Shown here piece by piece: positions 1 through 34,097 of a stretch of DNA of 34,097 bases. The stretch spans positions 1-34,097 of the IMG/VR virus record IMGVR_UViG_3300025888_000009, one strand, 5' to 3'. A program made the translations under genes and the position numbers. Numbering within the stretch: position 1 is the first letter of the stretch; each line of letters begins with the position of its first letter. The notes below the pieces were generated by a model that saw only the letters and a program-made list of their open reading frames with translations, was not told the origin of the DNA and did no database searches. The stretch is from a virus. Lineage: Duplodnaviria; Caudoviricetes.

Positions 1-126
1 TTTGCACCTTGGAGGTTTGCATCTCGGAGGTCTGCACCTCGGAGGTTTGCATCTTGGAGGTATGCACCTTGGAGGTTTGCACCTTGGAGGTTTGCACCTC
101 GGAGGTTTGCATCTCGGAGGTTTGCA
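1..126. repeat. Terminal direct repeat (assembly overlap), identical to 33972-34097; indicates circular/complete genome
   Basis: Base-by-base identity of 1-126 with 33972-34097; the gene crossing the junction stays in frame. Confidence 0.9.
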
Positions 127-209
127 TCTCGGAGGTTTGCATCTCGGAGGTATGCATCTCGGAGGTTTGCACCTCGGAGGTCTGCACCTTGGAGGTATGC
201 ATCTTGGAT
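1..209. repeat. 15-bp tandem repeat (TGCA(C/T)CT(C/T)GGAGGT(T/C/A)) encoding pentapeptide repeats; ~16 units including 33944-33971
   Basis: Direct inspection; no spacers between units. Confidence 0.95.
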
Positions 210-302
210 AGCTTCTTTAATAGTATCCTTATTAGATTCCCACAAAACTGAACCATTTATCCAATGTACAATCTTGATTTTTACTTCTAATTTTTTACTC
301 AT
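1..302 (-). CDS. Pentapeptide-repeat protein with C-terminal DUF5758-like domain, N-terminal part (continues across the junction into 33971..33602)
   Basis: Manual translation from ATG at 302: MSKKLEVKIKIVHWINGSVLWESNKDTIKEAIQDAYLQGADLRG...; 15-bp repeats encode A(N/D/Y)L(Q/R)(G/D); start overlaps stop of upstream ORF. Missed by the ORF track. Confidence 0.9.
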   Translation of the reverse strand, partial: MSKKLEVKIKIVHWINGSVLWESNKDTIKEAIQDAYLQGADLRGANLRDAYLRDANLRDANLRDANLRGANLQGANLQGAYLQDANLRGADLRDANLQGA

Positions 303-3850: not shown

Positions 3851-3875
3851 ATTGTTACTCCTTATAGGTTAGTTT

Positions 3876-3996
3876 ATTAAGCGTATGGTGCTAGTAGCAA
3901 GCCCGACGATTGCCCCATCAGTTAGCTTTCAAATCGCAATATCTATCCAGCTGATTCATTTACTACCAGCACTACTACGTTTAATTGTTAATGTTA
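3876..3996 (-). ncRNA. Putative structured RNA cassette: boxA-like TAACATTAACAATT plus long closing stem; paralogous stem to 31581-31701
   Basis: GTGCTGGTAGTAA (3960-3972) pairs with TTGCTACTAGCAC (3888-3900) using G-U pairs on the minus strand; outer stem 3976-3985/3876-3885. Confidence 0.7.
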
Positions 3997-6279: not shown

Positions 6280-6280
6280 A

Positions 6281-6367
6281 TTATACCTGCGGATAGATTG
6301 TGTAATCTATTCCATTAACTGTACCTAAATAGTACTCGCTCTTAATTTGTTTAATAGTTATTGTCAT
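6281..6367 (-). CDS. 28-aa peptide, first gene of promoter Pe3
   Basis: MTITIKQIKSEYYLGTVNGIDYTIYPQV*; GAGGA RBS. Confidence 0.6.
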   Translation of the reverse strand: MTITIKQIKSEYYLGTVNGIDYTIYPQV

Positions 6368-6400
6368 ATAATCCTCTTTTCTACTTTGGTTTATGTGTCT

Positions 6401-6429
6401 ATCTTACCACACGCTTACGCTAAAATCAA
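6401..6429 (-). promoter_or_regulatory. Early promoter Pe3 (TTGATT-17-TAAGAT, extended TG) with TAGCGTAAGCGT in spacer
   Basis: Same spacer motif at the same offset as Pe1; leader has AGTAGAAAAG. Confidence 0.85.
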
Positions 6430-6435
6430 TACTAA

Positions 6436-6464
6436 TTGTAACTTTAATATAGTTTTAGTATAAT
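6436..6464 (+). promoter_or_regulatory. Divergent promoter (TTGTAA-17-TATAAT) for the antisense sRNA
   Basis: -35 6436-6441, -10 6459-6464, back-to-back with Pe3. Confidence 0.8.
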
Positions 6465-6470
6465 ACAGAT

Positions 6471-6568
6471 AGATGGTTAGTTTTTTACTCTCGCCTACGG
6501 GCTTTAGTCAATTCACTTTTCTACTAGGCTAACTATCACAGATTGAGACTCGAAAGAGTTTCTTTTTG
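6471..6568 (+). ncRNA. Putative trans-acting antisense sRNA against early-transcript leaders
   Basis: Promoter, stem 6472-6482/6527-6537, C(UACG)G hairpin, loop TCAATTCACTTTTCTACTA, terminator; no ORF. Confidence 0.75.
6545..6568 (+). terminator. Intrinsic terminator GAGACTC-GAAA-GAGTTTC-TTTTT
   Basis: GNRA-capped hairpin plus U tract. Confidence 0.85.
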
Positions 6569-6764
6569 TTTATCCCCTATGTAATTACTACTGTTATTTT
6601 GATATATCCCCCTATAATGGGAGGTACATGTAGTGATAAGTAACCTATACCATTTTAATTAAACCTATGTTATATTGAGGGTATTATAAATAAGTATTAT
6701 CAGTAATGGTATTGTTTAATTATAAGCACCTTATACCCCCTATATAGTTAATTTAACTAGTAAT

Positions 6765-6833
6765 AATAACGCCGTATTTGTGTTGATTACCCTCCACTCC
6801 ACACAGTTACACTACAAGGCGTTATTTTTATTT
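6765..6833 (+). ncRNA. Hairpin RNA/terminator with C-rich (anti-SD-like) loop
   Basis: AATAACGCC/GGCGTTATT stem, inner TGTGT/ACACA, loop TGATTACCCTCCACTCC, T-rich tail. Confidence 0.5.
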
Positions 6834-6846
6834 GGGATTTTTCTTG

Positions 6847-6875
6847 TTGCAAATAATGTTAGTAAAGCTTATAAT
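6847..6875 (+). promoter_or_regulatory. Promoter TTGCAA-17-TATAAT
   Basis: -35 6847-6852, -10 6870-6875. Confidence 0.8.
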
Positions 6876-6928
6876 TATAGCTAACTGATTGACGTATTAA
6901 AGTACTTAAATCAGTAGTATAAGTAGTT

Positions 6929-6956
6929 AAGAAAAAAACCTCTTGCGAGGCTTCTT
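6929..6956. terminator. Terminator hairpin (CCTC-TTGC-GAGG) with U7 tract on minus strand and weaker tract on plus strand
   Basis: AAGAAAAAAACCTC TTGC GAGGCTTCTT between convergent promoters. Confidence 0.65.
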
Positions 6957-6980
6957 CGATTAACGTATTAAAGTATCTTA

Positions 6981-7009
6981 ATTATAACGTACTTAATAAT
7001 CTTATGCAA
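6981..7009 (-). promoter_or_regulatory. Convergent promoter TTGCAT-17-TATAAT
   Basis: -35 7004-7009, -10 6981-6986. Confidence 0.8.
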
Positions 7010-7150
7010 TAGTTATGGGGAGTCGCTGATCTATGCCAGTAAACGTAACTTTAAAACAGTTTACAAAATAGACTCAACGTTTTAGGCTATCGTAAAGCTT
7101 GCTTTATACTGATGAAAGTAAAACACAGCGTACATTAATAATTTGCATCA

Positions 7151-7498
7151 ATTAAAGGTAGTTGAGAGACGATAGAGCATAATCTCAAAGGAGAACACAT
7201 ATGGCTAAACATATAAGCAAGAGTGTCATAGAAGATATAGCTTACGAGATAAAAAGAGTTGGTTTAATTACTAAAGCCTACGAAGATGAAACAGTTAGTG
7301 AAGAAATGTCTTTAAATTTTGGTAGTATTGATGATTTTAATCTTAGTGCTACTCGTACATTAGAGTGGTTAACTGCTAATATCGCAGATATACTAGCTGA
7401 ACATGACCCAACATTCGATTATGATAGATTTAACAAACAAGCATCATTTAATATAGAAATATAATAATAAAATCTATCGTCTCTCACATGCCTTTAAT
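7151..7498 (+). repeat. Inverted repeat enclosing ORF 7201-7464 (10 bp + 2x2 loop + 14 bp), preceded by boxA-like GTACATTAATAATT (7130-7143)
   Basis: TGAGAGACGATAGA 7163-7176 / TCTATCGTCTCTCA 7473-7486; ATTAAAGGTA 7151-7160 / TGCCTTTAAT 7489-7498. Confidence 0.85.
7201..7464 (+). CDS. Hypothetical protein (one of only two plus-strand genes)
   Basis: AAGGAG RBS; 87 aa; C-terminal ..IADILAEHDPTFDYDRF.. Confidence 0.85.
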   Translation: MAKHISKSVIEDIAYEIKRVGLITKAYEDETVSEEMSLNFGSIDDFNLSATRTLEWLTANIADILAEHDPTFDYDRFNKQASFNIEI

Positions 7499-7529
7499 AA
7501 GATAATATAATTAATAACAACCAATAAAA

Positions 7530-7608
7530 GGGGAGTTAATAATAAAAGCATTGTCTGATGTAACTAACTAAGCAACCTAATCAGGTATAGCTTAAATATT
7601 TACTCCCC
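7530..7608 (+). ncRNA. Long imperfect hairpin, putative ncRNA
   Basis: GGGGAGT.AATA/TATT.ACTCCCC outer stem; AAGC..TGTCTGAT/ATCAGGTA..GCTT inner stem. Confidence 0.5.
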
Positions 7609-7678
7609 GCTGTTCTACAGTTAAAAAGAAGGGATAATTTATAGTACCAAAAAATAGTAACTAAGTTATAATAATCAC

Positions 7679-7888
7679 ATGACTGACGAAGAATACAATA
7701 AATATAATAAGCCTAAAAAGAAGTACACATTCGAGGAGCATAGAAACAGCGAAGATCGTAAATGGTCACTTGATCGCCAGCGCAAACACGATGAAGAAGG
7801 TAAAAAGATAATTAGAGCGATAAGTAACAAACATGCAACTATTTACCAAATCAAACAACAGGAGAAGCTTAGAAATGCTGCTAATTAG
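7679..7888 (+). CDS. Small charged protein, probably leaderless mRNA
   Basis: TATAAT at 7667-7672 lies 6 nt before ATG; no SD. Confidence 0.7.
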   Translation: MTDEEYNKYNKPKKKYTFEEHRNSEDRKWSLDRQRKHDEEGKKIIRAISNKHATIYQIKQQEKLRNAAN

Positions 7889-7986: not shown

Positions 7987-8048
7987 ATCTACTGCTCATT
8001 CGGGCAAAGTAATTATATCATTTACATCACCGCAAAGTGATTATATTA

Positions 8049-8420
8049 TTATTCTTTTATTCTATGCTCTGAAAATTCTATCAAGTCAAACTTTATTTCA
8101 AAGTCCCACTGTTCTGCGTCGTAGTTAAATATTGCATAAGCTGTAAACATTCCAGTAGACCACTGTGAGTTATCGTAGACATCACCAAGGTTTTTTATGA
8201 TGTCTTTGCCTATAACTATAAATAGCTCATTTATTGTATCCTGTAATTTATATACATTGGGGATTCTATCACCATAATCGTATCCTGTTGCTTGGAATAT
8301 AACAGAAGCCTTAACAGCCGCTGCCATAGTGTATTCGTCTAGATACAGACTATTCCAACCTAATTTTTCGCATATTGGTTCTAATTGTTCCACAATCTTA
8401 TCGTGAACATCTAATGACAT
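8049..8420 (-). CDS. Hypothetical protein flanked by an inverted repeat
   Basis: AGGAG RBS; ORF track. Confidence 0.75.
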   Translation of the reverse strand: MSLDVHDKIVEQLEPICEKLGWNSLYLDEYTMAAAVKASVIFQATGYDYGDRIPNVYKLQDTINELFIVIGKDIIKNLGDVYDNSQWSTGMFTAYAIFNYDAEQWDFEIKFDLIEFSEHRIKE

Positions 8421-8482
8421 ATATGATTCTCCTATCTATATGACTTTGCGGTTATGGGAGATATTTTTATCTCTTACCGATA

Positions 8483-26759: not shown

Positions 26760-27464
26760 TTAGCGTTCATATTCTGATTTCTCCTTAAACTTACTTTCTA
26801 TTATACTCTTTACGTTACCGTTGAATGCTTGGTCTAGGGTACTTATAAAGGTCGTGTCTGGTATCTTATCAGTTGGGGCGTATAACTTTACATCTTTCAT
26901 TATAATACTAACGTCGTAGTAAGTGTTACCGTAGATAGTTCTTGGTAAAACAACCTTGCCTCTTCTTAGTAGTGGTAATATCTCGTTGCTTAATTCTAGC
27001 CTTTTTTGTTTATTCATTATCATCGGTACGTGTAGTTCATACGAAAGTAAATCGGTTAGTCCCTTTTGTAATAAATAATCCCTAGTAGCCATAACGTGCT
27101 TTGTGTGGCGTTGGAGCATTGGGGTTTGGCGTTTACTTATAAAGGTATCAATATCGCCAGCATGATAGTTTAGTAGCTCTTTACACTCTTTAAATATAAA
27201 AAAGTCATCATTCATATATACAAAATCATCACTTAACCTATCGTCTAGCAATGCAAGTCTGAGGTTTAGTTCACAATCGTGTTGTCTGTTTTTGCCTCGT
27301 TCTGTTCTTGGTAAATATATGACTTTATCAGATATAAAGTCCGGCTCATCACCACATATAAAAATCCGACGGCAATTAATGTTTTTAAGTGATCGAAGAC
27401 AATATCTAAGCTCATCTGTCTTACTGTGGCAATAGGGTATTACACAATCTATTTGTGACGCCAT
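26760..27464 (-). CDS. Stealth-family-like sugar phosphotransferase/glycosyltransferase
   Basis: DELRYCLRSL, FVYMNDDFF, YELHVPM motifs. Confidence 0.75.
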   Translation of the reverse strand: MASQIDCVIPYCHSKTDELRYCLRSLKNINCRRIFICGDEPDFISDKVIYLPRTERGKNRQHDCELNLRLALLDDRLSDDFVYMNDDFFIFKECKELLNYHAGDIDTFISKRQTPMLQRHTKHVMATRDYLLQKGLTDLLSYELHVPMIMNKQKRLELSNEILPLLRRGKVVLPRTIYGNTYYDVSIIMKDVKLYAPTDKIPDTTFISTLDQAFNGNVKSIIESKFKEKSEYER

Positions 27465-28825
27465 AAAGAAGTCTCATTAGTTTTATCAAAGCTTTTGAAA
27501 ATCGTCGAGATGTGACGGCCGTAGTCTAGTAACTTTGGCATCTCATGTCGTGCTACATAATTAAATAACCCCATATCAGTTTGACCGACATTTGCTCGCT
27601 CATCGCTGTATATTCTGACCATTTGGTGGACAAATTCTAGGACGTTATCATAAGAACCACCGAGTATTCCGGCATTAAGTAAATCTGTATTACGACCTTG
27701 CCGTATAAAGTTAGTTAAGAATGCAGGCTTATGGTGGTTCATCATCCACTGACAGAGTAGTTTAACTGGTTCATCGCCTGTATAAATGTGTTTATCGTCA
27801 ATAGTTTCAAATGGGTTGCGTAACATCTCAACATCAGTACTATCAGTTATCCAGACAGCATCGCATGGGTTATCTCTTAAATATTTGTAGTAACTAATCC
27901 ACCTTTGAAAATATGGGTTAAGATATGTTTCAACTTTAATTAACTCAACATTTTTAGGCGGCGTGACATCATCAAAACAGTTATGTAATATCACTAGCTT
28001 TTGATTACCAACTGATTTAATCAATTCTGATAGCATATTAAAGTCTGTCTCTAATGAGCCTCGGCCTTGTGTGTCGTCCATACCTGTAAAGTAAGATGTT
28101 AGGATTATGTTATTCTTAAATTGCTTTTTTGCTTCTGGTTTATAAGGGCAATACTTTTTTGACATATAGCTAGCGTCCATTATTGGGCGTACTTCGTTAA
28201 GGTATTTTCTGCGGGTTGCAAGGTCGACTGTTGACGTAACTTCGAGTTGTTCATCTAAGCTGAATATCAATTTATCACTATTTGGGACATCCATATACCT
28301 AAAAGAGGTCAGTCCTGAATTAAAAATGCGGTTCGAAAGATCTAAGTGCTCCACGCCCCAAGCCTTATAACGTGTCTCCATTCCACCTACAATATCAAGG
28401 CATTTGTGATTCAAGTAAAGCATACAACCCCTTGGGTGTGTAAAAGCTTCAATCTTACTATCTTTGTACAATAAGTGACTATCGCCAACTTCTCTCTCAT
28501 TTATATATCTTATAAATATGTAGTTTAAATGCGGTTCTTCACTTTCTATGTATGGTTTCCACCAATCAAAGCATAAGGGAAAACAATCCGAATCAAAAAG
28601 GAAGATTTCATCGCAGTCATCTAATAATTCAAGGCATTTATTCTTAGCGTTATTTATCCCGACGGTTTGTTCAAATCTAAACGTGGCATCTGGTACTGGT
28701 ATAGCACTTCCGTCGTCGACAATGACTAATTTTGCACCATCGGGCATATATTTTCGTATTTCAACCATAGTTCGTTCATAAACTTCTGGTCGATCCTTTT
28801 CAGTAACCCCTATACCTATGCGCAT
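27449..28825 (-). CDS. Two-domain glycosyltransferase (GT2 GT-A domain plus second GT-A-like domain)
   Basis: VIVDDGS, GINNAKN, FLFDSD, WGVEH.DLS.R; second domain WITDSTDV...NPF...LNAGILGG...DMGLFN. Confidence 0.85.
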   Translation of the reverse strand: MRIGIGVTEKDRPEVYERTMVEIRKYMPDGAKLVIVDDGSAIPVPDATFRFEQTVGINNAKNKCLELLDDCDEIFLFDSDCFPLCFDWWKPYIESEEPHLNYIFIRYINEREVGDSHLLYKDSKIEAFTHPRGCMLYLNHKCLDIVGGMETRYKAWGVEHLDLSNRIFNSGLTSFRYMDVPNSDKLIFSLDEQLEVTSTVDLATRRKYLNEVRPIMDASYMSKKYCPYKPEAKKQFKNNIILTSYFTGMDDTQGRGSLETDFNMLSELIKSVGNQKLVILHNCFDDVTPPKNVELIKVETYLNPYFQRWISYYKYLRDNPCDAVWITDSTDVEMLRNPFETIDDKHIYTGDEPVKLLCQWMMNHHKPAFLTNFIRQGRNTDLLNAGILGGSYDNVLEFVHQMVRIYSDERANVGQTDMGLFNYVARHEMPKLLDYGRHISTIFKSFDKTNETSLWRHK

Positions 28826-29337
28826 TTTGCTATTCTCCGTTTTATTTTACTATATTCTCTCATGTAATCACGTTTACATTGCATACAACTTCTACCAACG
28901 CTACCATTTTTTCTACGCTTTATTTGTGTATTATCGACGCTATATTCATGACCTTGTGGGCAATGTGTTTTTATTAGATTAAATCTATGGCTATTACCAG
29001 TATGAAGATTTTCTTTTATAGTGACAACTTTTAAATGAGCAGGATTGACACAAGCCCTATGTTCACAACTTCTACCGCCAACACAAGTATCACGCTCTTT
29101 ATTATGGCAAGTATGGTCTAATAACATATTTTTTTCTATTTCCCCATTAAACAACTCATAAAAAGCTCTATGGGCAAATACTTCACGCTTATTTACATTA
29201 AATCTATTGTATCCATCTTGATTTTTTGCACCATTAAAAGACCAACAACCATTTTGTAATACTGTTATTTTAGATAGTAAATGTTGTATACGACTTATTG
29301 TTAGTGTTTCTATATTAGTTGGTTTTGGTAGACCCAT
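28816..29337 (-). CDS. HNH (zinc-binding) homing endonuclease
   Basis: GCW...AHR...LDHTC...CVNPAHL...EN; KTHCPQGHEY...C..C; likely start ATG 29337 with GGAG RBS. Confidence 0.9.
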   Translation of the reverse strand: MGLPKPTNIETLTISRIQHLLSKITVLQNGCWSFNGAKNQDGYNRFNVNKREVFAHRAFYELFNGEIEKNMLLDHTCHNKERDTCVGGRSCEHRACVNPAHLKVVTIKENLHTGNSHRFNLIKTHCPQGHEYSVDNTQIKRRKNGSVGRSCMQCKRDYMREYSKIKRRIAKCA

Positions 29338-29350
29338 TATTAACTCCATT

Positions 29351-29426
29351 ATTCAGCCACCCCACGACAAAGTGGCTGAATGTTAAAGTTAATAAGAGTG
29401 TCGTGGCTCATACCTATATTATAGCA
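29351..29426 (-). promoter_or_regulatory. HNH-dedicated promoter (TGCTATAAT) and structured leader (hairpin/pseudoknot)
   Basis: -10 at 29418-29423; stem 29351-29360/29372-29381; loop complementary to 29399-29406. Confidence 0.65.
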
Positions 29427-29431
29427 ATAAC

Positions 29432-30166
29432 CTACCATGTCCGCCAATTCCTTAATGATTCCTTTACGTCAATATTTTGTTCCCAGCCGAATGCCTTTTT
29501 TAATCGTGAGTTATCACCATCTAAAATATCCGCCTCTGATTCGCCTCGTTCGTTCATAACATAGTTGACAGCTGTAATACCCATTAAATTAACCACTTCT
29601 CGTACACTCAGTGCCTCATTAGCGCATAAGTCGTATGTTCCAGTCTCTTTGCTTTCAACTGCTCGTACAAAGGCTTGTGCGACGTCATCTACGTGTATGA
29701 AGTTACGAATCATTTCACCGTTATTATAAATTGTAGCATTGCCACGCATTAAAGTTGGTATTAATTGGCTTTCACTTTGGCCTGTACCAAATGGGTTGAA
29801 TATCCGAAAGGCTACTGAGTTTTCGGGCAGACATTCCTCAGCTAGTTTTTTGCTCATCATGTATGGGTTATAATCACCATAAATAGCGGCAGTTGAGGCT
29901 AATATTATCCGTTTATCACGATCAAGTAGAGCAGTTGATAAGGTATTATTTATAAAGAACTTCTCTGGGTTGTCGAAACTATCTTGAATGCCGATTACAC
30001 CTGCTAAGTGGATAATAGTATCAACTGACTTTGCATCAAATCGTTTAGTACAGTCATTACCGTCTGATAAATCAAACCGTTCAACTTGATGTCCTTCATT
30101 TTCTAAGGCTTCAACAATATGTCGGCCCAAAAATCCGTTAGAACCTATTACTAATATTTCACTCAT
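29432..30166 (-). CDS. NAD-dependent epimerase/dehydratase (extended SDR)
   Basis: GSNGFLG, IHLAG, STAAIYG, YMMSK, RNFIHVDDVA. Confidence 0.93.
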   Translation of the reverse strand: MSEILVIGSNGFLGRHIVEALENEGHQVERFDLSDGNDCTKRFDAKSVDTIIHLAGVIGIQDSFDNPEKFFINNTLSTALLDRDKRIILASTAAIYGDYNPYMMSKKLAEECLPENSVAFRIFNPFGTGQSESQLIPTLMRGNATIYNNGEMIRNFIHVDDVAQAFVRAVESKETGTYDLCANEALSVREVVNLMGITAVNYVMNERGESEADILDGDNSRLKKAFGWEQNIDVKESLRNWRTW

Positions 30167-31243: not shown

Positions 31244-31368
31244 CTGATCGTCCTAAGTTTTATATCTTTTTTAATTTGGTTTAATTGTAAATCGTACTCG
31301 TATGATAATTTGAAACTATCTAACTTTGATTGTTTACTAATATTAAATCCTTACTTTTAAATGATATT

Positions 31369-31579
31369 AGTTATACATGGGTAAGGTCTAGTAGTAGAGT
31401 TGGACTTGAACCAACGACCTAAGCACCAATAAAAATCCTTTTGAGATTTTCTAATGCCACATTCTAACCAGCTGAACTATCCACTACTAGCTTTGGATAG
31501 CAATTGGGCTTCAGCATTTGCTTCTTTAGTGCCGCTTATTAAATTGCTATCCTTATCCATGTATAACTTTTAAATGTGC
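31369..31579 (-). ncRNA. Structured RNA cassette: boxA-like GCACATTTAAAA plus 18-bp closing stem enclosing a hairpin domain and the tRNA-like element
   Basis: 31551-31568 pairs with 31369-31386 (one mismatch); GGATAGCAATT/AATTGCTATCC 31495-31505/31542-31552. Confidence 0.75.
31388..31490 (-). tRNA. tRNA-like element with canonical D and T arms, elongated anticodon arm, 11-bp acceptor stem and no CCA; isotype unassignable
   Basis: CTAGTAGTGGA TA GTTC AGCTGGTTA GAAT G [39-nt arm] AGGTC GTTGG TTCAAGT CCAAC TCTACTACTAG. Confidence 0.75.
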
Positions 31580-31580
31580 T

Positions 31581-31701
31581 AATTAAGTATGTAGGTGCTA
31601 ATAGCAAGGGGGTCTAATCTTAACCCATAGGCTCAGGACTCAAGAGTGGTGACCTATGGAGAACCTTACTACCAGCATTACATACTTAATTGTGAATGTT
31701 C
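31581..31701 (-). ncRNA. Structured RNA cassette: boxA-like GAACATTCACAATT plus 13+14-bp stem with branched top
   Basis: 31679-31691/31581-31593 perfect; 31664-31677/31596-31609 with G-U pairs; inner CCATAGG/CCTATGG. Confidence 0.75.
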
Positions 31702-33602: not shown

Positions 33603-34097
33603 TAGTATTTCTCAGCTTCTATTTTACTGATAAAGAAATGAATACCGTTAGAACATTCATCTTGCCAATTATCATCGAACTTATCTGGCTTAACTGTTTC
33701 ACCAACTTTATATATAAAATTATTATCGTTTTTACTGATAGCAGTTTTTAACTTACGGCTACCTTTGGTTATTTCTAGTACCTCAGCATATTCAGCACGA
33801 CATTTACGACCGAAAGCATGTGATCGCTTAGCTTCTTTTGGTATTAAAAGTTTAACTATTTTATCATCAACACATTTTTTATAACCAATAATATCTCCCT
33901 CTGGTAATATTCGTGTTAATGCTATAGCATAATCCGCGTCTTTTGCATCTCGGAGGTTTGCACCTTGGAGGTTTGCACCTTGGAGGTTTGCATCTCGGAG
34001 GTCTGCACCTCGGAGGTTTGCATCTTGGAGGTATGCACCTTGGAGGTTTGCACCTTGGAGGTTTGCACCTCGGAGGTTTGCATCTCGGAGGTTTGCA
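33602..34097 (-). CDS. Pentapeptide-repeat/DUF5758-like protein, C-terminal part (whole protein ~223 aa after removing the overlap)
   Basis: ...[47 protein letters not shown]...[36 protein letters not shown]; TAA at 33602-33604 overlaps next ATG. Confidence 0.9.
33972..34097. repeat. Terminal direct repeat (copy of 1-126)
   Basis: Identical to 1-126. Confidence 0.9.

What the first reader, a model, noticed from the sequence alone, without database searches (positions are those of the whole stretch)
7130..7498. A whole protein gene packaged inside a boxA + closing-stem cassette
Seen in the sequence: GTACATTAATAATT (7130-7143), then a 10-bp + 2x2 internal loop + 14-bp inverted repeat whose arms lie just outside the RBS and just after the stop of ORF 7201-7464. 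This is the same architecture as the ncRNA cassettes, but the cargo is an mRNA, on the otherwise nearly gene-free plus strand. Inference: the mRNA could be excised as an end-protected (possibly circularised) stable species, suiting an immunity, exclusion or anti-defence protein. Alternatively the arms are recombination ends of an exchangeable gene cassette.
Basis: partly seen in the sequence, partly recalled or inferred. Interest (0 to 1): 0.8.

Follow-up and report, generated by a model that had tools for sequence, protein, structure and literature searches.

The report
Phage mRNA clamped like pre-rRNA
A small phage, likely of Saccharibacteria, places an 87-codon gene behind a ribosomal-RNA-type boxA signal and between two complementary arms that recur with changed letters around the gene's relatives, so the host's ribosomal-RNA machinery likely makes this message and cuts it out as a stable, end-paired unit.

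Summary
Observation confirmed. boxA-like 7130-7143 is followed by a 10-bp + GU/CA loop + 14-bp helix (7151-7176 with 7473-7498) around ORF 7201-7464. It is the strongest long-range duplex found in this 34-kb siphophage genome. Four related loci (about 40% protein identity) all keep a closing helix, with different letters; three keep the boxA. The motif matches the boxA of Saccharibacteria rRNA leaders, and a Saccharibacteria genome carries this phage's head/tail module, so that is the likely host; NusB and RNase III occur in 5 of 5 such genomes. A sister arm pair encloses 32 different cargoes in other phages, two of them unrelated ORFs. Best reading (0.6): a mini pre-rRNA unit, Nus-assisted and likely cut by RNase III into an end-paired monocistronic mRNA. 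Cleavage is untested: no RNA data were available. Circularisation and site-specific DNA recombination are unsupported. The acidic four-helix protein has no known family; an early host-takeover or anti-defence role is a guess. New here: the 5'UTR and first 15 codons look like a second conserved RNA domain. This scan noted the same cassette design before on other DNA; ten paper searches did not find it in print.

The parts
7060..7101 (+). Predicted host-rRNA-type promoter: TTTACA (7060-7065), 17 nt, TAGGCT (7083-7088), then AAGCTTG (7095-7101)
   Evidence: Same layout as promoter-like sites before five Saccharibacteria 23S genes (by eye). Not listed by the sigma-70 scan. Inferred.
7099..7121 (+). 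7-bp hairpin just before boxA (position of boxB in rrn leaders)
   Evidence: Predicted fold; conservation not tested
7130..7143 (+). boxA-like motif, predicted NusB/NusE site
   Evidence: Third best of 68,166 sites for a profile built from 24 Saccharibacteria 16S/23S leaders; ranks 1 and 2 are the two other boxA cassettes
7151..7176 (+). Left arm: 10 bp + GU + 14 bp
7175..7245 (+). Conserved 5'UTR and first 15 codons; predicted nested helices, SD at 7190-7193, start codon paired
   Evidence: Synonymous conservation, consensus fold and pair counts; only partly the minimum-energy fold
7201..7464 (+). 87-aa acidic (pI 4.4, net -9) four-helix protein of no known family
   Evidence: no family or fold match
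7473..7498 (+). Right arm: 14 bp + CA + 10 bp
7530..7608 (+). Next stem-closed element (about 80 nt); a relative's contig rejoins here
3875..3996 (-). Sister cassette A: boxA plus the widespread arm pair around a ~57-nt non-coding cargo
   Evidence: arm family
31580..31701 (-). Sister cassette B: boxA plus stem around a ~52-nt non-coding cargo
31368..31569 (-). Stem enclosing a tRNA-like gene (31390-31487)

Best explanation
The gene sits between a host-type rRNA boxA and a 24-bp helix that joins its two untranslated ends, a layout that likely lets the host's rRNA transcription and RNase III machinery make the message and cut it out as an end-paired single-gene mRNA. Shown: the boxA match to host rRNA leaders, the helix, its conservation by paired changes around homologues, and the reuse of this design for RNA and ORF cargoes. 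Inferred steps: (1) host RNA polymerase starts near 7095 from an rRNA-like promoter, so no phage factor would be needed; (2) NusB/NusE bind boxA and hold the left arm near the polymerase, as in rrnTAC; (3) the right arm pairs once the ORF is transcribed; (4) RNase III cuts or nicks near the 2x2 loop, leaving a ~325-nt mRNA closed by ~14 bp, shielded from RNase J and 3' exonucleases; (5) the small acidic protein is made early and most likely acts on a host target (takeover or anti-defence); this last step is a guess.
For: Helix stronger than any other found in the genome and than 500 of 500 shuffles at each of five loci. The four family ORFs in the window, L001, L003 and L004 rank 1-4 of 126 ORFs for an enclosing duplex. 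Own-arm pairing (-27 to -46.5) mostly beats cross pairing (-7 to -28), so the arms change together. boxA-like motif upstream in 4 of 5 loci. 19 of 19 Saccharibacteria 16S leaders and 5 of 5 23S leaders have the anchor TTnACARTT, followed by leader-trailer helices. The three best sites for that profile in the window are the three boxA cassettes. A close relative changes this boxA toward the host consensus. NusB and RNase III are adjacent genes in 5 of 5 such genomes, with RNase J in 5 of 5. Ten or more head/tail proteins match, in order, a stretch of Saccharibacteria genome G088 at 33-51%. Sister arms enclose 32 distinct cargoes of 29-423 nt, 2 of them ORFs with SD; 186 of 192 cells at six unselected outer positions pair, with 9 G.U against 2 A.C. 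A chromosomal non-coding element between mraZ and rsmH has the same build. Internal loops can limit RNase III to one cut and leave protective stems (PMC1540722, passages); paired termini stabilise RNA in E. coli (PMC1635301, passages).
Against: No transcript, end-mapping or cleavage data exist for this DNA. In the engineered paired-termini RNAs, RNase III did not alter the RNA's size or amount (PMC1635301, passage), so a clamp need not be cut. L005 has no boxA-like site and a weak outer stem. In L001 the boxA is 100 nt from the ATG, not next to the arm. Sense-strand pairing beats antisense in only 3 of 5 homologous loci, two of them marginally. Only 17 of 32 sister cassettes have a boxA-like site within 70 nt. 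In host rRNA the boxA itself pairs in the helix and the stem has no 2x2 loop at that place. The arm letters differ from the host 16S and 23S stems. The host is inferred from 1 of 151 genomes for the tail-tube query, and the cargo gene was in 0 of 401 genomes of that class. The homologue set is five loci.
Confidence: 0.6

Rival explanations
1. The helix is an uncut clamp. It protects both ends of a primary transcript, or only insulates the cargo's folding, and boxA serves antitermination alone.
For: Engineered paired termini stabilise RNA independently of RNase III (PMC1635301, passages). The loop differs among cassettes: 2x2, 3x2, 1x2 or 1x1.
Against: The helix length (about 10-11 bp + loop + 13-14 bp) is kept in phage and host copies. 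Arm sequence is nearly invariant across 32 sister cassettes, which suggests a protein reads it, though the searches selected for that core.
Confidence: 0.2
2. The pairing is a translation switch, as in type I toxin mRNAs: the message is held shut until it is complete or processed.
For: The 5'UTR and first 15 codons are conserved beyond protein need and can pair over the start codon. In several loci the end of the left arm can pair with codons 14-15 as an alternative to the right arm.
Against: The predicted cost of opening SD-to-AUG changes by 0.9 kcal/mol or less between the transcript ending at the stop and the full one, in both directions, and is within the range of 24 other phage genes. The closing arms do not cover the SD. 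The protein is acidic and soluble, unlike type I toxins.
Confidence: 0.1
3. The arms are DNA recombination ends of an invertible or exchangeable cassette.
For: One 261-nt contig of a relative (run X4) runs from the boxA at 7138 to 7530 with 73 other letters instead of the cassette. Cargo varies between constant arms. The gene lies on the otherwise empty strand.
Against: No phage-integrase or resolvase match in the genome. Arms differ between homologues yet pair within each. T.G at an unselected position in 24 of 32 sister cassettes, with no A.C in the inner 13 positions. Gene, SD and boxA have the same order in all five loci. The relative without the gene also lacks the left arm. Cargo exchange may simply follow homologous recombination between repeated arms, helped by the phage's Erf-like protein (inference).
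Confidence: 0.06
4. After cutting, the ends are ligated into a circular mRNA.
For: The helix brings both ends together; archaeal pre-rRNA is circularised from such stems (recalled).
Against: RtcB in 0 of 5 likely-host genomes. No RNA-ligase family match in the phage, and none over the cut-off in 4 host genomes. The loop is not a bulge-helix-bulge.
Confidence: 0.04

Closest known systems
Bacterial rrn leader: boxB-boxA plus leader-trailer helix cut by RNase III (E. coli rrnTAC; PMC10250234, abstract and introduction read)
   Same: Hairpin, boxA, then a long helix (24 bp; more than 17 bp is needed for 16S) formed by sequences flanking the cargo; the boxA matches the likely host's own rRNA boxA.
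   Different: The cargo is a protein gene in a phage. The helix has a central 2x2 loop and other letters than the host's 16S and 23S stems. Cleavage is not shown.
T7 early-mRNA RNase III sites such as R1.1 (PMC1540722 passages for loop-limited cleavage; the T7 gene layout is recalled)
   Same: A phage would use host RNase III to cut single-gene early messages; an internal loop lies in the helix.
   Different: T7 sites are local hairpins between genes with no boxA; here the helix spans the whole gene and would pair both ends.
Lambda nut sites and the N-leader RNase III hairpin (nut: PMC10250234 introduction; the N-leader hairpin is recalled)
   Same: Phage boxA followed by a helix that could be an RNase III site, upstream of a small early gene.
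   Different: No N-like gene was identified; the lambda hairpin is local and lies wholly in the leader.
Paired-termini RNAs: engineered PT antisense RNAs and processed hok mRNA (PMC1635301, passages)
   Same: 5' and 3' ends pair and stabilise the RNA.
   Different: No boxA and no rRNA-like unit there. hok encodes a membrane toxin under antisense control (recalled); this protein is acidic and soluble.

Membership tests
rrn leader (boxA + leader-trailer helix) | boxA matching the host's rRNA boxA | tested here: met
   Rank 3 of 68,166 sites for a profile from 24 Saccharibacteria rRNA leaders; the host is inferred
rrn leader (boxA + leader-trailer helix) | Long helix between sequences flanking the cargo, kept by paired changes | tested here: met
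   24 bp; kept at 5 of 5 loci with different letters
rrn leader (boxA + leader-trailer helix) | Cargo is an rRNA | tested here: not met
   Cargo is an 87-aa ORF; no Rfam match at E up to 1 in 6280-7700
rrn leader (boxA + leader-trailer helix) | NusB and RNase III available in the host | tested here: met
   5 of 5 Saccharibacteria genomes each
rrn leader (boxA + leader-trailer helix) | NusB/NusE binding and RNase III cleavage of the helix | not testable with these tools
   Needs biochemistry or RNA end mapping
rrn leader (boxA + leader-trailer helix) | boxB hairpin before boxA | tested here: inconclusive
   A 7-bp hairpin is predicted at 7099-7121; conservation not examined
T7-type RNase III early-mRNA site | Local hairpin between genes | tested here: not met
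   The arms are 296 nt apart and span the ORF
Invertible or integron-type DNA cassette | Site-specific recombinase in the element | tested here: not met
   No PF00589 or PF00239 match in the phage record; a host enzyme is not excluded
Invertible or integron-type DNA cassette | Both orientations or excised circles in DNA | tested here: inconclusive
   Only assembled contigs could be laid; no strand-switch joint was listed, one replacement joint was
Type I toxin mRNA with 5'-3' pairing | Small hydrophobic toxin | tested here: not met
   pI 4.4, net -9, four short helices
Type I toxin mRNA with 5'-3' pairing | 3' end controls access to the ribosome-binding site | tested here: not met
   Predicted opening cost changes by 0.9 kcal/mol or less with the 3' arm; prediction only
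Type I toxin mRNA with 5'-3' pairing | Cognate antisense RNA | not tested
   Not examined
Stem-derived circular RNA (bulge-helix-bulge / RtcB) | Bulge-helix-bulge motif and a ligase | tested here: not met
   2x2 loop; RtcB in 0 of 5 incomplete genomes; no RNA-ligase match in the phage
Known anti-defence, exclusion or immunity proteins | Sequence or fold match to a described family | tested here: inconclusive
   No match in Pfam, PHROGs, PADLOC, PDB, BFVD or the Atlas's named clusters; absence does not exclude

The most novel reading that the evidence does not exclude
Saccharibacteria and their phages share a standard pre-rRNA-like expression cassette, boxA plus a protein-read 24-bp stem, into which any small RNA or ORF can be dropped. 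Here the cargo is a dual-function RNA: a stable, RNase III-excised mRNA whose 5'UTR and first 15 codons form a conserved protein-binding fold, and whose product is a new class of early anti-host protein.
Probability: 0.3. Interest if true: 0.85.

Novelty: new variant of a known kind. Interest (0 to 1): 0.68.

Why it matters
boxA/Nus complexes and leader-trailer helices are treated as tools for making ribosomal RNA. A phage that frames an mRNA this way, and reuses one arm design for tRNA-like RNAs, unknown RNAs and ORFs, would widen their role to selective mRNA maturation and stabilisation. It would give a short natural substrate for testing whether Nus factors chaperone end-pairing. It would also mark, by sequence alone, the genes and RNAs that phages of hard-to-culture Saccharibacteria invest in most, and offer a compact stabilising cassette for these hosts. 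The same motif points to an unannotated conserved host RNA between mraZ and rsmH.

Tried and rejected
Protein function: no Pfam, PHROGs or PADLOC family; no fold match with E up to 0.001 in PDB or BFVD, best VIA Z 5.6 with poor rmsd; Atlas neighbours are unnamed viral clusters; no match in annotated phages; 0 of 401 genomes of the likely host class. No complex prediction was run, for want of a candidate partner. Expression: no RNA holder listed. The single-protein scan of viral contigs found nothing. The window's own right-arm variant matched 9 viral loci, none with a convincing partner arm (best -21.8). The UTR motif matched 4 loci, of which 3 are unrelated. The 65 boxA-plus-arm hits were mostly chance matches in coding DNA; six, with duplexes of -29.7 or better and the expected arms, were taken as real (the output was cut in the middle). 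Of 146 left-arm matches only 60 had a right arm within 1150 nt; the other 86 were dropped. The idea that the phage arms copy the host 16S or 23S stem letter for letter was rejected. The arm pattern in 301 Saccharibacteria genomes hit 12 genomes against a similar number of control hits; only 4 were true cassettes. Sigma-70 promoter hits in the region were at chance level, 11 against 13.8. A completion-triggered translation switch was tested and not supported. No Rfam match at the gathering score for any cassette cargo searched. Cassette A resembles a hammerhead core by eye but the spacing does not fit; not pursued.

Full report
Setting. The window is one whole virus record of 34,097 bases, rated 100% complete, with terminase, portal, protease-capsid, tape-measure, lysis and Erf/Gam-like genes almost all on the minus strand. 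It has no phage-integrase or resolvase match. Its best DNA holder is a peat metagenome, possibly the source. The likely host is Saccharibacteria: the tail-tube protein matched 1 of 151 genomes of that family, and in that genome (G088) ten or more head and tail proteins match in the same order at 33-51% identity. The arms of sister cassette A also occur in a record titled Candidatus Saccharibacteria (L081) and as true cassettes in 4 of 301 genomes of the family. One copy lies in a record titled Flavobacteriales (L077), which speaks against a strict host range or reflects binning.

The observation. The helix is the best long-range duplex in a genome-wide scan and the longest of 463 inverted pairs. 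None of 500 shuffles reaches it, and the region folds at z -4.3. The arms leave the SD (7190-7193) and the stop outside the helix.

Conservation around homologues. The protein has 19 database members including itself, at 37-82% identity; a profile search over 1.8 billion representatives found 8 proteins. I obtained DNA for four independent loci, L001, L003, L004 and L005, at 39-42% identity (L002 is the window's own record and L006 repeats L001). All four have a closing helix at the same place, with different letters: -32.1, -30.9, -46.5 and -27.0 kcal/mol, each beating 500 of 500 shuffles. Among 126 ATG ORFs of at least 50 aa in the window, L001, L003 and L004, the four family genes rank 1-4 for an enclosing duplex. 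Left arms pair best with their own right arms; the exception is the L005 left arm, which pairs as well with the window's right arm because the two share an arm type. Against this: pairing on the sense strand is stronger than on the antisense strand in only 3 of 5 loci. L001 keeps the window's position between the Erf-like gene and the lysis genes; L003 and L004 do not. In run X5 a 6.3-kb contig covers 7076-7507 at about 86% identity; the 40 of 56 differences that were listed include none between 7146 and 7247 and 35 between 7248 and 7392, and two of them turn the boxA into GTACTTTAACAATT. The 16 unlisted differences leave the right arm unchecked. In run X4 one 261-nt contig goes from 7138 to 7530 with 73 other letters that do not begin with the left arm, so a relative lacks the cassette at this site; this rests on one contig.

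The boxA is the host's rRNA boxA. All 19 Saccharibacteria 16S leaders examined and all five 23S leaders hold TTnACARTT (I chose this anchor after seeing the leaders), followed by long leader-trailer helices. A profile from those 24 sites scores 68,166 window positions; the top three are 31701(-), 3996(-) and 7130(+), the three boxA cassettes. L001 and L003 score higher still, L004 modestly, L005 not at all. Upstream, TTTACA-17-TAGGCT followed by AAGCTTG resembles the sites before host 23S genes (by eye), and a 7-bp hairpin precedes the boxA. NusB and RNase III are neighbouring genes in 5 of 5 host-family genomes, RNase J is present in 5 of 5, RtcB in 0 of 5. The phage arms are not copies of the host 16S or 23S stems, in which the boxA itself pairs with the trailer.

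A reusable cassette. The arm pair of cassette A matched 39 and at least 119 viral loci from its two sides. Across those 158 loci there were 146 left-arm matches; 60 had a right arm within 1150 nt, giving 32 distinct cargoes of 29-423 nt. Seventeen of 32 have a boxA-like word within 70 nt. Two are ORFs with an SD, of 64 and 60 aa and unrelated to this protein (L119, L123), and L164 from a Saccharibacteria genome shows a third, read by eye. Others are tRNA-like or unknown RNAs without an Rfam match. At six outer positions outside both search patterns 186 of 192 cells pair, with several pair types, 9 G.U and 2 A.C; at an unselected inner position 24 of 32 are T.G. The invariant core was selected by the search and is no evidence on its own. 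The window's ORF cassette has the same geometry, with UA-GU on the left and CA-U on the right of the loop, though its inner letters differ. The host chromosome has a related element between mraZ and rsmH: matches in 39 of 61 genomes and a closing stem in all 10 of the 15 fetched loci where my core motif was found.

A second RNA domain inside the gene. Where residues are identical, codons are identical in 37 of 51 cases in the first 15 codons against 35 of 89 in the rest (window against four loci; Fisher p 0.0002, sequences not independent). A consensus fold pairs the UTR with codons 4-15 and buries the AUG; one helix shows changes on both sides, one of which swaps Ser8 for Thr (96.5% of cells paired, 1 of 500 shuffles as high, 9 of 500 for covariation score). 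With five sequences this is suggestive only, and the consensus is 4-6 kcal/mol above each minimum-energy fold. The predicted cost of opening the ribosome site does not change with the right arm, so a completion switch, a lead from note e1-10199673, is not supported. A protein-binding operator is a possibility.

The protein. AlphaFold gives four helices at mean pLDDT 89.7. It is acidic, as are its close relatives (pI 4.2-4.9), and has no family or fold match. Its nearest Atlas clusters are unnamed viral proteins. A host-type promoter and a soluble acidic product fit an early protein acting on a host target better than a repressor or a membrane exclusion protein, but this is inference.

Mechanism and rivals. 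I commit to a mini pre-rRNA unit that is Nus-assisted and cut by RNase III into an end-paired mRNA (0.6). An uncut clamp (0.2), a translation switch (0.1), DNA recombination ends (0.06) and circularisation (0.04) follow. It works like an rrn leader by every sequence test I could run; it is not a member, since the cargo is a protein gene.

Literature. I read the abstract and introduction of PMC10250234 and keyword passages of PMC1540722 and PMC1635301; no supplements. The T7 gene layout, the lambda N-leader hairpin, hok biology and archaeal circularisation are recalled. Ten searches of the open-access library (listings only) showed no description of boxA-plus-clamp cassettes around phage ORFs; subscription journals are not covered. 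Earlier notes of this scan report the same design in other phages but none for this protein or this arm sequence; they are unchecked and are not counted as evidence.

Verdict. Real, conserved, RNA-level, and part of a reusable phage and host cassette design not found in print. Processing and protein function are untested. New variant of a known kind; interest 0.68.

Noticed in passing
L086 / L174-L188 (Saccharibacteria chromosomes, between mraZ and rsmH): A conserved ~170-230-nt C/A-rich non-coding element with anti-SD-like CACCTCCC words, closed by a long stem and often preceded by boxA; matches in 39 of 61 genomes; L086 has no Rfam match. The gene names come from reading the flanking frames by eye.
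   Followed up: partly
window 8024-8457 (-): ORF 8049-8420 is also enclosed by a shorter stem (10 bp + 3 bp) without boxA; next best enclosing duplex after the four family genes, but the whole fold is not significant (z -1.5).
   Followed up: partly
window 7530-7608 (+): An 80-nt stem-closed element right after the cassette; relatives in runs X4 and X5 keep its start.
   Followed up: partly
window 31390-31487 (-): tRNA-like gene with an odd anticodon arm (ARAGORN '???'); its acceptor stem resembles the cassette arm motif, and it lies inside a further long stem.
   Followed up: no
G015, G042, G012, G004, G050: nusB lies directly upstream of rnc (RNase III) in all five Saccharibacteria genomes checked.
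   Followed up: no
L131-L146: Saccharibacteria 16S genes are followed by a trailer and a terminator-like hairpin, and the 23S gene has its own promoter-like site and boxA.
   Followed up: no
L120 / L061 and L088: Sister arms enclose a 268-nt RNA that starts like a tRNA D-arm, and a 144-nt tRNA-like RNA with an insert; neither has an Rfam match.
   Followed up: no
L005:520-640: A second small cassette after the gene, with a T-arm-like hairpin between arm motifs.
   Followed up: no
window 6880-7010 (+): Three copies of a 20-nt AT-rich repeat (ACGTA..TAA core) in the divergent promoter region; possible operator sites.
   Followed up: no
window 1-261 and 33882-34097: A 15-nt tandem repeat at both ends of the record, reading as pentapeptide repeats next to a DUF5758 domain; the ends probably join within this gene.
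   Followed up: no
window 26760-30166 (-): A sugar-modification cluster: glycosyltransferase, nucleotide-sugar epimerase and an HNH gene.
   Followed up: no
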